A stretch of DNA of 64,000 nt from Waddliaceae bacterium (GTDB lineage Bacteria; Chlamydiota; Chlamydiia; Chlamydiales; Waddliaceae), in the NCBI GenBank assembly GCA_963724325.1, contig CAVRUH010000005.1, forward strand, positions 160,001-224,000, in the 5' to 3' direction. The position numbers are program-made. Below, in pieces: positions 36,001-42,000 of this stretch. Within the stretch, counting starts at the first letter, position 1. Every line of letters begins with the position of its first letter.

Positions 36001-39000
36001 TGCACATTTTTTGATTTGTCTTTTTTTGTTTGAGGATGCGTTTGAGAATTATTTTTTCTTCGTCATCGTTGCCGATGTATTTGGAATCAAGGTTGTGTTT
36101 CATGAGTAATTGTTGTGACTTGATCATGGCCTGTTCAGCTTCGTTTTCGTTGGTGCTGCCTGCAAGAGCCATGAGTTTTTGGACTTTTCGTAGGACGCTG
36201 TTTTCCTCGGCGTCACATTGGATGAAGTCTAGGGAGGTGGTTGCTTTATAGACTTGATCGCTCCAGCCGAGCCGGCAACAGAATGCTTTAAATTCGGCGC
36301 CGTGGGGATTGACCGCGTATCCGAAGTTGATGAAGGTGATGTAGTGGGCAAGTTCGTGTCGAATGATGTTGTGGAGTTGTTCTTTGCTGACGTTGATTAG
36401 TTGTTCGTGGAATCCCATTTCATAAAATTCGGGATTAAAGTATCCCAGCATATTTTTATTGTTGAAAATGACGACTCGGATTGGATAAGAATACTCTTCA
36501 TTTGTGGAATAGAATCTATCACCGCGGACCCTGAGACGGATTTCTCTTTCTAAAACATGTTTAATGACACTTTTTATATCTTCAACGAACTTTACAATCT
36601 TTTTTGAATAGACGTGCATGACGGTCACTCCCTGAATTTGTCTAGAGATCCTAACATAGTCAATACAAAAGTTCTATAAAAAACCGAGATGCGCCATCGC
36701 AAGTGACACGTGAGGTGTAAAGACTAGAGCTGTCAATGATGAACGTGCTAATACGAATTCCTATTTGGGTTCAAACGGGTAAAAGTATGGACGCGGGGTC
36801 GCGGAAACACGGAATAATCTTTTTTCTAATATGGGGTTTTTCCCCTGTATTTTCATTCACCCACAATTGCTGGAGCCCCGCACCAAATCGAATTTTGTGC
36901 TTGAGTTTTATCTGTTCGTTTAAATAGAATGTGAACGCCTCAAATTTTAAAACTCGAAAATTAGGAGAAAAAATGGGATCGCAATACGTCAAATCAAAAA
37001 TTATTCACGCCGAAACTAAGATGCCCAGTGATAGTGGTGGAGAAGGCAAACCACATCCTCGTTGCCTTGCAACGGTACCAGGAAATATCGAAGAATTAAT
37101 TAACCAATTTAAAATGCAAGAAAAAGAGATCTGCTCAGGCTCTCAAAAATAGTTTTTGTTTATATGGTCATGATTCTGATGAATCATGACCAATAAATTC
37201 TATAGGTGTTATAAGAAGATTTAATAGTAGTTTATTATTGGGTTTCAAGATGAATTTAATATCAAAAATTAGCATTGTAGGGAGAGGGATTGATCCTTCA
37301 AAACATTTAAGCCTGGCAGCCGTCAACGCTCTCAAATCGGCAGATAAGATCATAGGCATCGAATCTGAAAAGGAATTTTGGGAGGAACTTCAAAAGGAAT
37401 ATGGAATTGGCGATGTAGAAGATATGGCTAGTCTTTATAACAGTCAGGATAAGGACATGATTAATTATCATCGATTTGTTGACCATGTCCTTTCTCTATT
37501 GCCCAATTTTAACCACTTAGCGCTACTTGTTGCAGGACATCCAAGAATCGGTGTTACTTTTATTGAATTATTAAAAAAGAATGCACCCGCGAATTTACAG
37601 ATTAATATTATCGAGGGCATTTCAAGCTTTGATGTCATGATAAACTATCTAGAAATAGATCCTCTTGAAAAAGGTACCGTTATTGTAGATGCCAACCGGT
37701 TATTACTTTTTCAATATAAATTAGAACCCTCCCTTTCATACTTTATTTATCACGTATGTTCTATTGGAAATTCAACAACTAATTTTGTCGATCCCTCTTC
37801 AGGGAATCGGCTTGATCTTCTTAAAAATTATTTGATGAAATACTATTCCAAAGATAAAGAAATTTTACTATGCAGAGCCTCAAATGGGAAAAATGAAAGT
37901 TCATCATTGGTCCGTAGTACGATTGCCGAATTAGAGGCATGTACATCAAAAATCGATTATAGCACAACCTTGTATTTACCTGGTGAAAACCCCAAACAGT
38001 TGGATTGGGCTTATTTGGAGTTGTTAAAATGAATTCTATGAAAATACTGCATTGTATTTTAAACAATAAATGGATTAAAGCAGTACTGCTCATAACCGTG
38101 CTGCAACAACTTTTAGTAGCTGGAGGCACCTATTTTTTAGGAGAACTTGTCAGACAATTTCCGATCCAAGGATTTCAACTCAGTTCAGCCATAATTTTAT
38201 TTTTTTGTATCTTTTTACCAGGGACTATAGTTCATTACTGGATCGTTTGGTGCTCCGTACGGGCATGCAAACTAGCACAGTTGAATTATCTTAACGAATA
38301 TATCCAGACAAACTATAATCACCCCACACATTGGCGTAACGAAAAGTCTAAACAACAACGACATGATATCATGTGTCGTGGAGGCCAAGAAACAATTCAA
38401 TCTACGGTCTATTTTTTTGCAGATTTGACTGCAACTGGGCTGAATATCATTTTGAATACTATTTCTATTATTCTTGTTACTGATTTAACGCTGGGCATTG
38501 TCATCGTTTTAGCAGGGCTTTCAGGATTAACAATTATCTATTTTTCAGGGACAAAAATAGCAGATAGCAGTCGGGATGAAATGCTATCTGAAAATCGACT
38601 GAATGCACATATGAGTCGAAGCTGGGATAATATTGTTTTAGGAAATCAATTATTTTTTGACCGATGGAAGAAACATTTTAATGATTTATTCTCTGTTACA
38701 GAAAAAGCTTCTCTAGAGGTAGTCAAAAAAAGAGATTGGGCGATCTCAGTTGCGGGTTTAATCACAAACGGTCTTGTCCTTGGAAGCGCAATATTTCTTG
38801 CTTGGCTGAACCAAGAAAATGCTGGTTTTGTTTTAGCTATTCTTGTGATGCTACCTAGAAGCCTTCAAATTGTTATGCATATTCAGATCATACAAAACTA
38901 CGTCGCACAATGGAAAACAATCAGAGAAAAATTAGTTGTTACAAATGAAAGCCTTCTAACACCAGAGTCTATAGATCTAAGTTCCTTAATTCAAGACGAC

Positions 39001-42000
39001 AATATTCTAATTAAATCGGGTGAGCAAAATCATTCTGTTAGAGAAATTGACAATCTTATTACTAACAACAAAACAGGTCGTTTCACCATTACAGGACCCA
39101 ATGGAACAGGTAAGTCAAGTTTGTTATTAAAGTTAAAAAATAAATTTAGCTTATCTGCAACTTATCTTCCAGCCCATCATCAACTCATGCTTCGAGAAGC
39201 ACAATTAAGTCTTTCCACAGGAGAAATTGCTCTAGCGGCATTGAAAGACCTTGAAAAAGAAAATAATGGCATCTTATTTCTGGATGAATGGGATGCAAAC
39301 CTATCAGCAGAAAATCGTGTTGTTTTAGACCGCCTAATTGAGCAACTCAGTTTAGAAAGAGTCGTGGTGGAAATTAGACACACTATCGATTTTGTAAGAG
39401 TCTGATGTATGTCTAGTAATATTGCACAAACAATACTGGTTACAACAAAGTGTTCGGGTGGATGTCAACATTGTCCCTTTTCAAGTGCTGATATGGAACA
39501 ATTATTTTTGAAGTCGGAAACAATCCAAACAATAGTGAACCAAACTACTAGTGAGTTAGTTGTTCTCTCCGGAGGAGAGCCTTTTGAGCATCCAGATATT
39601 TCTTCAATTTTAACAGGCCTCAGCAGACAAAATAAGCCATTTAGGATTGCCACTGGAGGATTTCTAGATCTAAAGCAGTGGATTGACCAACTAAAACAGC
39701 TTAGTTATCCTTCGGGTCCACTTGAGGGCATATCGATGGGAACTGATGTGCTTAGTACACGTGTTAACAATAAAAGGTGGAATGCAATTTGGAAAAATAA
39801 CATTCAGCTACTTTCTGAATACCAAATTTCTTATTCTCTTACCTTTACAATAGGAAACGATTTGAATTTTACTCAAATGAATCTGCCAAACTGGATAGAT
39901 CTTTCTAAGAGCAAGCCAGAATTTCTCTACTTGAGGTACTCGCACGAACATTTGCGTAAAAAATGGATTCTGGATCTTAATAACGCTTTCGGCAACATTC
40001 CGATTATTCAGGACGACCTCTTATGACCTCTATTCGTTTTCTACCGATTGATTTGCAAAAAAACACAGATCTTTGTGTTAAATTCCGAATTGATTCCTTT
40101 GTATGTGGCTTTGGTCATGCGGATTCTTTTTACAAAAATTGCGGAATCAACGGTGAGGATTATCTTAAGTGGCTTAAAAAAATTATGGAAGAGGACCAAC
40201 TTGCTGCTTTGCACATTTGGGAAGATAATCAAATCATTGGTCAACTCGAACTTACAATACGCAAAGATGAAAAAGATGAAAAATATGGCTATGTGAATCT
40301 TTTTTATCTAATTCCCGAAAAACGTGGGACAGGGATTGGAGACGTTATTCATGGTTATGTTGAAGACCATTATCGACGATTGGGTTATTCTGTGCTCCGC
40401 TTAACTGTAAGTTTTGAAAATGTCCGAGCCATTAAGTATTATATAAAACATGGATGGAAGGAAATAGGCCCTCGCTCAGATTTCCCAGGAACCTTTTACA
40501 TGGAAAAAAAGCTTTGAGATATTTCTTCGCAAGAGACACCCGTGAAGTGTGAAGAATGACCTCTCTATTTCCCTATTTTATTCTCAATTTAAAATCAGGA
40601 ATTTGCTAGAATTAAGGCACGTGCAGGAGAAACGCGTGGTTCCAAAAAATATGAATAAAATTATTCAGTATCAATTTATTCAGAAGTTGAAAACTGTTCC
40701 TTTTATTGAAAAAATTTATCTCTATGGATCACGTGCAAAAGGTATTAATGATGAACGTGCCGATATAGATTTAGCGATTGAATGTCCTCTCGCTACAGAT
40801 GAACAATGGGATCAAATATTGAAAATTATTGAAGAAGCTGATACACTTCTCAAGATTGATTGTGTGAGATATGATCGGATAAAAAATTTGAAATTTTTAA
40901 ATGCCATAGCGAATGATCACATTGTTTTATTTGATAGGAAAAATTAAGAATGAAAAAATATCCATGGAAAGAATCTTTTGAGTCATTGGGAGATGCAATA
41001 AATCGTTTGGAAGAAGTTTTAAAGATGACTCCTGATGAGCACCAAATTGTGATGGATGCAACGATTCAGCGTTTTGAATTTACCTTTGAATTATTTTGGA
41101 AGACACTCAAGAGGTTTTTGTTTGTAGAAGGTATAGATGTTAAAACACCAAGGGAAACTTTGGAAATGGCATATCAATTAAAGTGGATCAATGATGAAAA
41201 GTTATGGTTAAATATGCTCAAAGACAGAAATGAGATTCCTCATATTTATAATGATGGATTGGTTAAAGATATTTATGACAGAATAAGAAAATATGTCCAC
41301 GTCCTTAAAGAAGTTTATGTATTTCTCGGTTCTAAGAAGAAAAACTAAGATTTTTTTCTGAACTTCCGCGTCTTCGAGTTGATTTTTCTGTGCAGAGACG
41401 CGGAGTATTTATAATTTTGATTATTCAAGTGACCAAGGCCGCAAGGTGATAGAAAAATTGATAAACAATTTTTTTGTTGGAGGCTTGAGATATTTTGAGG
41501 TAACATAAGGGCTCCTTTCGGAATAATCTTTTTTCTAATAAAAGTTTTTTTCCCGGTATTTTCATTTGCTAGCAACTGCTGAATTTCGTGGGCAATTGTA
41601 AAATAATGAGCGATAATTAACCTTGAATAAAATATGATCCTTGGATAGGTTGTGAGGGAGGGATCAAAAAATGAACGGAATATTTAATACACCTCTTCTC
41701 CTATATAAAATTGCAGGATACTTGCCGATGAAAGATGTCGGAAGGCTATCCCTGTGTTCTCGGACATTGCAGCGCAAAGTTTCTGACTATTTTATTTTAT
41801 TTTTCACAAATGGAATAAGTGACGAATTTTCTAAATTAAATCCCGAGTTCATAATCAGAAATATTCAGAATTCTAAATCTGCAAAATGTGCTAGGATGAG
41901 TTATATATGCCTTTGTGCATTGCACCAAACAAAATCATTCATTTTTTCTTTTAAAGCCACTAGTATGGGTTGGAAATGGTTCGATGCATTTCCTCCCTTT

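What a model noticed while it worked through the whole genome (the two positions that open the first line are those of the whole stretch)
36973..40517. Conserved chlamydial cassette: small PRCL-motif peptide + borosin-type N-methyltransferase + ABC-like protein + mini rad [...]
A 59-codon ORF (g01325) is followed, tightly packed, by four genes: a TP-methylase whose only solved relatives are borosin peptide alpha-N-methyltransferases (g01326), a 458-aa protein with an ABC-exporter-like membrane part and a P-loop (g01327), a 205-aa radical-SAM enzyme (g01328) and a GNAT (g01329). Peptide, methylase, ABC-like protein and rSAM enzyme keep the same order in five other chlamydial genomes. I read the cassette as a gene cluster for a ribosomally made, backbone-N-methylated and radical-SAM-modified peptide (a split-borosin-like RiPP) that is exported by the ABC-like protein. 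It would be the first borosin-type pathway in Chlamydiota (only unspecified 'RiPP-like' antiSMASH re [...]
Evidence so far: g01326: the best Swiss-Prot hits are the fungal borosin methyltransferase/precursors pgiMA1 and mroMa1 (25% identity, E 6e-9). In a phmmer search against all PDB sequences, 12 of 12 hits are borosin alpha-N-methyltransferases (MroMA1/2, SonM, dbOphMA; best E 1.8e-10). g01327: NCBIfam 'peptidase-domain ABC transporter' matches residues 5-374 to model positions 144-518 (E 2e-11), and there is a P-loop region at 346-440. g01328: Radical_SAM at 10-148 with CxxxCxxC at C15, C19 and C22; the weak best NCBIfam hits are the peptide-maturase rSAM enzymes ScmE and YydG. Conservation (tblastn in 5 loci from other Chlamydiales, 5 families including this genome's own, call 66): g01326 is 58-68% identical [...]
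(Added by a program. Inside this text positions count along the whole contig: contig position 160,001 is position 1 of the stretch shown here. "Call 12" and the like, gene names such as g00115 and contig names such as C1 are that model's own, and its searches are not shown. The text may have been shortened before it was handed on; [...] marks where a part breaks off. The agent that wrote the report below was given it as the finding of a first reader that could run no searches.)

Follow-up and report, generated by a model that had tools for sequence, protein, structure and literature searches.

The report
Borosin-sister peptide pathway with swapped arginine
A four-gene set in an environmental chlamydia encodes a small peptide whose 19-residue motif recurs, in one to four copies, beside related enzymes in many other bacteria, plus a rewired relative of peptide-backbone-methylating enzymes, a minimal radical-SAM enzyme and a predicted exporter; it likely makes a modified peptide of an uncharacterised family.

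Summary
Peptide, methyltransferase, ABC-like protein and mini radical-SAM gene keep their order in six other chlamydial-type loci and in more distant loci. The GNAT is not part of the conserved unit, and the short ABC ATPase is a family trait, not an assembly error.

The interpretation needs changing in three ways.
(1) The peptide's 'central' motif is a 19-residue unit (HPRCLATVPGNIEELINQF). It lies upstream of the enzyme in 31 of 33 distinct loci, and occurs as 2-4 tandem copies in some, e.g. a Serratia plasmid. That is multi-core precursor anatomy.
(2) The enzyme has the borosin fold (TM 0.80-0.88) but forms its own clade, in which the essential catalytic Arg is Asp (168/170) and the borosin motifs and binding domain are missing.
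(3) The family is not chlamydial. Sister clusters use HExxH and 2OG oxygenases and MFS exporters instead.

Best reading: a RiPP family sister to borosins, in which the precursor's invariant Arg likely docks on the enzyme's Asp and directs site-specific methylation. RiPP about 85%; backbone N-methylation about 50%. Nine literature searches found no description.

The parts
36973..37152 (+). Predicted precursor peptide, 59 aa: variable N-terminal part, one 19-residue family unit, variable tail
   Evidence: ORF with AGGAG ribosome site; orthologues upstream of the methyltransferase; coding-type substitution pattern
37054..37110 (+). 19-residue unit H28-F46 (HPRCLATVPGNIEELINQF); R30 (37060-62) and P36 (37078-80) invariant; first half likely core, second half predicted amphipathic helix (likely recognition part)
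   Evidence: R30 and P36 invariant in 24 of 24 aligned peptides; 2-4 tandem copies in other loci; hydrophobic moment 0.67 for the second half
37250..38032 (+). Borosin-fold TP-type methyltransferase of the 'Asp clade' (Y63, D69 in place of catalytic Arg, Y73, GHPR 96-99, DANR 147-150, YH 167-168)
   Evidence: Pfam PF00590; PDB hits; model pLDDT 94.9 and Foldseek TM 0.80-0.88 to MroMA/OphMA/SonM; residue counts and tree
38029..39405 (+). ABC-exporter-like protein: membrane part plus a shortened ATPase (Walker A 356-363, LSTGE 395-399, Walker B/D-loop 417-423, H451); no peptidase domain
   Evidence: NCBIfam; same layout in 16 aligned homologues; motif positions and hydropathy
39409..40026 (+). 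Minimal radical-SAM enzyme (CxxxCxxC, GGE motif, bare partial barrel; no SPASM, no RRE)
   Evidence: Pfam PF04055; alignment of 12; model pLDDT 88.8; Foldseek best SkfB, TMq 0.75
40023..40517 (+). GNAT acetyltransferase, overlapping the rSAM stop; local add-on, not in the conserved unit
   Evidence: Pfam PF00583; not found in relatives' loci or in 5 cassette genomes

Best explanation
The cassette likely makes a ribosomal peptide natural product of an uncharacterised family that is sister to the borosins: a precursor with one 19-residue unit is predicted to be methylated by the borosin-fold enzyme, modified again by the mini radical-SAM enzyme, and exported by the ABC-like protein. Shown: the gene set, the unit and its tandem copies elsewhere, the fold, the separate clade and the Arg-to-Asp change. 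Inferred step 1: the unit's amphipathic second half (N38-F46) docks on the methyltransferase in place of a borosin-binding domain. Inferred step 2: the unit's invariant Arg30 pairs with the enzyme's Asp69, which sits where borosins keep their essential Arg. This would fix the register and give site-specific SAM-dependent methylation in or next to P29-P36, most likely on a backbone amide (about 50%). Inferred step 3: the radical-SAM enzyme acts at or via Cys31 (thioether cross-link or epimerisation), the role that HExxH/2OG oxygenases fill in sister clusters. Inferred step 4: a protease encoded elsewhere releases the core for export.
For: Unit within 700 nt upstream of the enzyme in 37 of 43 loci, against 0 of 1058 control windows (pattern fitted after seeing the loci); 31 of 33 after removing duplicates and allowing Ile at position 5. 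Three near-perfect copies in the Serratia liquefaciens plasmid NZ_CP033895 precursor, the last ending at the stop codon; four copies in L048 and L050. In 400 chlamydial genomes all 6 strong peptide hits (E<1e-10) sit beside the enzyme (the profile was built from these loci). All top structural matches are borosin peptide N-methyltransferases; profile E 1e-27 to 1e-21 for borosins against 1e-6 or worse for diphthine and corrin methylases. Oxyanion-type Tyr63 and Tyr73 kept in 166 of 170 each; SAM-site G96/P98 kept. D69 in 168 of 170 clade domains, where 18 of 29 outside domains have Arg. Sister clusters hold known RiPP enzyme types: an aKG-HExxH-like protein (atlas score 0.95-0.96) in 7 of 10 rSAM-free loci with long downstream sequence, 2OG oxygenases, an M3 peptidase and MFS exporters. 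Cys31 is present in 11 of 11 rSAM loci with a visible peptide and in 1 of 9 rSAM-free loci. Paralogues of the mini rSAM lie in another RiPP-like cluster with a PqqD-rSAM and a YxxP-leader peptide.
Against: No product or activity is known. In SonM the Arg is essential: R67A is inactive and R67K is about 100-fold down (PMC8429565, passages), so the chemistry may differ. The enzyme carries its own new arginines (R99 in 126/170, R150 in 166/170) that could replace the lost one without substrate help; model coordinates could not be inspected. The SonM 'bottom lock' pair (F99/W166) aligns to G101/Y167. Asp at position 69 also occurs in 5 of 29 outside domains. The Cys-rSAM link probably rests on one lineage, so it counts as about one event. 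There is no protease in the cassette. The ABC family also stands alone in many chlamydiae (56 of 400 genomes; contexts), so it is not RiPP-specific. The rSAM fold matches viperin nearly as well as SkfB.
Confidence: 0.5

Rival explanations
1. Same RiPP pathway, but the rewired enzyme methylates a side chain or freed N-terminus of the unit (Arg30 held by Asp69, or Cys/His), not the backbone amide.
For: The catalytic Arg is lost, and Q167, F99 and Y93 of SonM align to H168, G101 and a variable residue. An acidic pocket suits a cationic substrate. TP-family enzymes methylate carbon, oxygen and amine acceptors (established knowledge).
Against: Both backbone-binding tyrosines are kept (166/170 each). 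Some sister clusters carry separate class I methyltransferases, which would cover side-chain methylation.
Confidence: 0.22
2. The 19-residue unit is only a recognition sequence (follower) and the product is the variable stretch in front of it, as in cyanobactin precursors; the enzyme uses its own R99 or R150 and methylates the backbone there.
For: The unit is highly conserved and partly helical; spacers between tandem units vary; R150 is kept in 166/170.
Against: Spacers range from almost none to about 12 residues. N-terminal parts share nothing even between loci whose enzymes are 58-73% identical. L057-L059 repeat only the first 12 or so residues of the unit.
Confidence: 0.13
3. The methyltransferase-fold protein is a catalytically dead or weak scaffold that binds the unit and presents it to the radical-SAM or oxygenase partner, or the peptide is a regulator rather than a substrate.
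For: The essential Arg is absent; the rSAM enzyme has no RRE of its own.
Against: SAM-site motifs and a clade-specific set of polar residues (D69, N72, D147, N149, R150, H168, S171) are near-invariant, as expected of an active site. Tandem identical units suit product amplification better than regulation.
Confidence: 0.1
4. Not a peptide pathway: the enzymes act on a tetrapyrrole, nucleic acid or small molecule (YabN-, viperin- or QueE-like) and the small ORF is incidental.
For: The best NCBIfam hit is YabN's N-domain (E 9e-16); the rSAM fold resembles viperin.
Against: The YabN score is 58 bits against a cut-off of 525, with no pyrophosphatase domain. The unit accompanies the enzyme in 31 of 33 loci across 30-70% enzyme identity.
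Confidence: 0.05

Closest known systems
Split borosins, type IV (SonM/SonA of Shewanella oneidensis; PDB 7LTC and others) and fused borosins (OphMA, dbOphMA, MroMA)
   Same: Same fold (TM 0.80-0.88); about 260-aa stand-alone enzyme with a small ORF next to it; the two active-site tyrosines and the GHP motif.
   Different: Catalytic Arg is Asp; GHPG[VA]F reads GHPRxG; EAT reads DANR; WQ reads YH. No five-helix borosin-binding domain. The precursors share a strict motif, whereas borosin precursors are reported to lack conserved elements (10.1101/2024.01.09.574750). Partners are rSAM or HExxH/2OG enzymes, not GGDEF proteins.
Type V multi-core split borosins (RceM/RceA)
   Same: Precursors with near-identical tandem units, each methylated once (10.1101/2021.12.24.474128).
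   Different: RceA's unit is an 11-residue acidic repeat and RceM carries a fused binding domain. Here the unit is 19 residues with an invariant Arg and Pro, and the enzyme has no extra domain.
Legionellales borosins lacking the binding domain
   Same: No borosin-binding domain; small precursor directly upstream; MFS transporter nearby in the example read.
   Different: The one example read (Legionella sp. PC1000 plasmid; I assume it belongs to that group) keeps Y..R..Y, YGHP and DCLFAD, and its 65-aa peptide lacks the unit.
Peptide-modifying radical SAM enzymes EpeE/YydG and SkfB; aKG-HExxH RiPP hydroxylases
   Same: Best sequence (YydG, E 8e-7) and structure (SkfB) matches of the mini rSAM; HExxH proteins in sister clusters.
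   Different: The mini rSAM is a bare 205-aa barrel with no RRE, no SPASM/twitch domain and no conserved cysteine outside CxxxCxxC. The matches are superfamily-level and do not assign a reaction.

Membership tests
Borosin alpha-N-methyltransferase | TP-methylase fold closer to borosin enzymes than to corrin/diphthine methylases | tested here: met
Borosin alpha-N-methyltransferase | Active-site Tyr, Arg, Tyr (OphMA Y66/R72/Y76; SonM Y58/R67/Y71) | tested here: not met
   Y63 and Y73 kept; Arg is D69 in 168 of 170; alignment to MroMA and dbOphMA
Borosin alpha-N-methyltransferase | YGHP and DCLFAD motifs used for BorosinMT detection | tested here: not met
   Read as AGHPRIG and FDVMINY; judged by eye, the published HMMs were not available
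Borosin alpha-N-methyltransferase | Borosin-binding five-helix domain in precursor or enzyme (most types; absent in Legionellales) | tested here: not met
   The peptide profile finds no SonA chain in the PDB; the enzyme model has no extra domain
Borosin alpha-N-methyltransferase | Backbone alpha-N-methylation of the precursor | not testable with these tools
   Needs mass spectrometry
YabN methyltransferase/pyrophosphatase | Fused MazG domain; NCBIfam cut-off | tested here: not met
   57.8 bits against 525; 260 aa only
RiPP cluster (general) | Conserved small precursor linked to peptide-modifying enzyme types and an exporter | tested here: met
RiPP cluster (general) | Dedicated protease | tested here: not met
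   None among the five genes; an M3 peptidase in sister locus L054 only. Many RiPPs use a distal protease.
Peptidase-containing ABC transporter (PCAT) | N-terminal peptidase domain | tested here: not met
   The match begins at model position 144
ABC exporter | Membrane domain plus Walker A, signature, Walker B, D-loop, H-loop | tested here: inconclusive
   All present and conserved, but the signature is LSTGE and only 31 residues separate it from Walker A, so most of the helical subdomain is missing
Radical SAM superfamily | CxxxCxxC, GGE motif, partial TIM barrel | tested here: met
SPASM/RRE peptide maturases | SPASM/twitch cysteines or PqqD-like domain | tested here: not met
   No such Pfam hit, no further conserved Cys

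The most novel reading that the evidence does not exclude
A widespread, undescribed RiPP class built on a borosin-sister enzyme that has handed its catalytic arginine to the substrate. The precursor's invariant Arg completes the active site on Asp69, turning a promiscuous iterative backbone methylase into a sequence-addressed one. The same 19-residue unit is then diversified by a plug-in second enzyme: a bare radical-SAM barrel acting on Cys in chlamydiae and related loci, HExxH/2OG oxygenases elsewhere.
Probability: 0.3. Interest if true: 0.85.

Novelty: new variant of a known kind. Interest (0 to 1): 0.7.

Why it matters
Borosin enzymes are the only ribosomal route to backbone N-methylation, and the source of amide deprotonation in them is still open (PMC8429565). 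A natural clade lacking the essential Arg tests that mechanism directly. If the Arg comes from the substrate, it gives a short tag for site-specific N-methylation. The family has about 105 clusters at 50% identity, includes cultured hosts (a Serratia liquefaciens plasmid), and has small genes, so it is easy to test. It also gives a concrete candidate for the unexplained secondary metabolism of environmental chlamydiae (PMC9666466).

Tried and rejected
Enzyme-peptide complex prediction: the tool's queue was full, so there is no result; binding and the R30-D69 contact remain untested.
Second-look structural alignments (VIA) were not obtained because the machine was busy.
Expression: no RNA holder was listed for the G023 copy; this is not evidence either way.
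Viral contigs: 155 candidate stretches, none a relative.
Genome-contig scan with the single protein gave 1 locus from 138 candidates, so contexts of the named Bdellovibrio, Nostoc, Aeromonas, Paludibacterium and Symbiodolus homologues were not seen.
Promoter/terminator scan: 22 sites against 18.6 expected, uninformative; one sigma-70-like site lies at 36901-36930.
Assembly error in the ABC gene: rejected, same layout in 16 homologues.
C-terminal tail as core: rejected, its length runs from 0 to about 27 residues and it is absent in the Serratia-type precursors.
GNAT as part of the pathway: rejected as a conserved part, though it could act locally.
A diphthamide-like His modification: rejected, position 28 is H, C, K, N or V in rSAM loci.
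LRR likeness of the unit: E 0.5, not significant.
The tree is the quick search; the careful search did not finish. It holds 50 of the 170 clade domains, no solved borosin and no YabN outgroup, so it shows a separate clade but not the root.
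Full report
OBSERVATION. The methyltransferase, ABC-like, radical-SAM and GNAT genes abut or overlap; the 59-codon ORF starts five bases after an AGGAG and ends 97 bases before the methyltransferase. 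Pfam gives TP_methylase, P-loop, Radical_SAM and GNAT hits and nothing for the peptide. The cassette is 36.1% G+C against 40.1% for the genome. The same-genus genome G195 (97% complete) has the neighbouring DUF2786 gene with unrelated genes beside it and gave no methyltransferase hit. The set looks like a mobile accessory island.

DISTRIBUTION. In 400 scored chlamydial genomes the methyltransferase matched 13 at E<=0.001, this one included. Seven are full-length clade members, four are partial or broken copies (G369, G242, G215, G124), and two (G349, G243) are a different, canonical type. The rSAM matched 12 of 400 and the ABC protein 56 of 400. G162 keeps ABC plus part of the rSAM, and G373 the ABC alone, so the island decays. 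Outside Chlamydiota, sources name homologues from Bdellovibrio, Nostoc, Serratia, Aeromonas, Paludibacterium and Symbiodolus at 35-49% identity. A profile search of 1.84 billion representatives gave 192 clusters at E<=1e-30, about 105 of them full-length above 199 bits before the scores fall to about 140.

THE PEPTIDE. Reading upstream of the enzyme in 34 metagenome loci and two plasmids showed that the 'PRCL motif' is part of a 19-residue unit, x-[PIVL]-R-[CLQ]-[LMQI]-x-x-[VLAI]-P-x-[NDE]-[ILVF]-x-x-h-h-x-x-h. A pattern fitted to it hit within 700 nt upstream in 37 of 43 loci and in 0 of 1058 control windows from the same loci. After removing ten duplicate, broken or truncated loci and allowing Ile at position 5, it hit 31 of 33; the misses are L017 (167 nt of upstream sequence) and L042 (an altered copy running into the enzyme frame). 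R30 and P36 are invariant in 24 aligned peptides while both flanks vary freely. Eight of the 33 loci have 2-3 units in one ORF, L054 has two single-unit genes, and L048 and L050 have four units. The Serratia liquefaciens plasmid peptide is three identical units, gap-free against the window's unit, the last ending at the stop. The second half of the unit has a high helical hydrophobic moment (0.53-0.70 in four units), and L057-L059 repeat only the first half. I infer core first, recognition helix second.

THE METHYLTRANSFERASE. An AlphaFold2 model (pLDDT 94.9) matches only borosin enzymes in the listed Foldseek ranks, TM 0.80-0.88. The family profile scores borosins at E 1e-27 to 1e-21 and other TP methylases at 2e-6 or worse. 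The active site is rewired. Of 217 proteins, 199 domains of at least 200 residues were kept (22 fragments dropped); 170 score at least 190 bits. Among these, Y63 166, D69 168, Y73 166, R99 126, G101 168, D147 168, N149 168, R150 166, H168 162. Among the other 29, position 69 is Arg in 18 and Asp in 5, and position 168 is Gln in 27. Y63/D69/Y73 align without gaps to the Tyr/Arg/Tyr of MroMA and dbOphMA, the spacing of the OphMA mutants Y66F, R72A and Y76F named in the PDB titles. In SonM the Arg contacts the substrate carbonyl and closes the top lock; R67A is inactive (PMC8429565, passages; also PMC11751858, passages). A quick maximum-likelihood tree of 81 rows (50 of the 170, all 29 others, 2 chlamydial canonical domains) puts the 50, plus one low-scoring member, on a branch of length 0.72 with SH-aLRT 100. 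An invariant Asp in the enzyme where an essential Arg should be, next to an invariant Arg in the peptide, suggests a charge swap with substrate-assisted catalysis. That is inference. R99 or R150 of the enzyme could do the job instead, and the complex could not be modelled.

THE PARTNERS. Twelve of the 33 loci have rSAM plus ABC; all 11 with a visible peptide read P-R-C. Of 10 rSAM-free loci with at least 2.8 kb downstream, 7 have an HExxH protein and 7 an MFS transporter, and 1 of the 9 with a unit has the Cys. The HExxH proteins are mutually homologous, and the one searched scores 0.95-0.96 to aKG-HExxH peptide hydroxylase clusters, an established RiPP enzyme type (PMC12636437, passages). 2OG oxygenases, extra methyltransferases and an M3 peptidase also occur. 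The mini rSAM folds as a bare partial barrel (pLDDT 88.8); its best matches are SkfB, viperin and SuiB by structure and YydG/EpeE by sequence over residues 8-91, none of which assigns a reaction. Its paralogues in G201 and G369 follow a PqqD-rSAM gene and a 26-29-residue Cys-containing peptide with a YxxP leader motif (motif per PMC12710340, passages). The ABC protein has about six hydrophobic segments, Walker A, an LSTGE signature, Walker B, D-loop and H-loop, with only 31 residues between Walker A and signature; 16 homologues share this. It has no peptidase domain. Of 10 distant paralogue loci seen, three lie behind HExxH-motif proteins (L023, L082, L085), one is in sister cluster L054, and the others have no evident cluster.

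MECHANISM. Most likely: precursor made; unit bound through its helix; methylation near R30; radical modification at or via C31; cleavage by a distal protease; export. RiPP pathway about 85%; backbone N-methylation within the unit about 50%; substrate-supplied Arg about 30%.

KNOWN OR NEW. It works like a split borosin system but fails three membership features (catalytic Arg, detection motifs, binding domain). Nine literature searches found no description of this clade, its unit, or a borosin-like enzyme with rSAM or HExxH partners. I read parts 1-3 of 4 of 10.1101/2021.12.24.474128 and parts 1-2 of 4 of 10.1101/2024.01.09.574750. Cho et al. 2022 (Biochemistry) is recalled, not read. For Chlamydiae, PMC9666466 (passages) reports only 'RiPP-like' clusters and does not mention borosins. 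Two earlier AI notes of this scan describe what seems to be the same family in other genomes; they are not independent evidence. Verdict: real feature, new variant of a known kind, interest 0.7.

Noticed in passing
L078:5532-7640 (G201) and L079:4871-7010 (G369), minus strand: A second chlamydial RiPP-like cluster: 26-29-aa peptide with a YxKPxI leader and conserved Cys, then PqqD-radical SAM, a paralogue of the mini rSAM, class I methyltransferase, enolase-like protein, GNAT and MFS (fused to a kinase-like domain in G201).
   Followed up: partly
L027:4768-7308 (G349) and L028:436-2934 (G243): About 840-aa proteins with a canonical borosin methyltransferase domain (Y..R..Y, FYGHPG) and a long uncharacterised C-terminal part; canonical borosin-type genes in Chlamydiota.
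   Followed up: partly
56 of 400 chlamydial genomes, e.g. L080-L087: A widespread ABC-exporter-like family whose ATPase lacks most of the helical subdomain (38 of 46 genomes in family f6); mostly standing alone, sometimes behind an HExxH-motif protein.
   Followed up: partly
L063:6714-10665 (Serratia liquefaciens plasmid NZ_CP033895); L064 (Serratia marcescens plasmid AP028500): Plasmid-borne sister cluster with a three-unit precursor, HExxH protein, 2OG oxygenase and MFS; in L064 the methyltransferase match stops at residue 140, next to transposase genes. L063 is the easiest model for experiments.
   Followed up: partly
L057-L059 and L054: Sister clusters with shortened repeat units, extra class I methyltransferases and an Asp/Asn beta-hydroxylase (L058, L059); two precursor genes and an M3 peptidase (L054).
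   Followed up: no
P0175 (684 aa): Asp-clade methyltransferase fused behind a long hydrophobic, MFS-like membrane region.
   Followed up: no
window 40651-41348: Minimal nucleotidyltransferase plus substrate-binding/HEPN-like gene pair (likely toxin-antitoxin), 30.5% G+C, directly after the GNAT.
   Followed up: no
window 41671-47297: Two tandem, similar 930-aa genes with ankyrin-like C-terminal repeats (read by eye); possible host-directed proteins.
   Followed up: no
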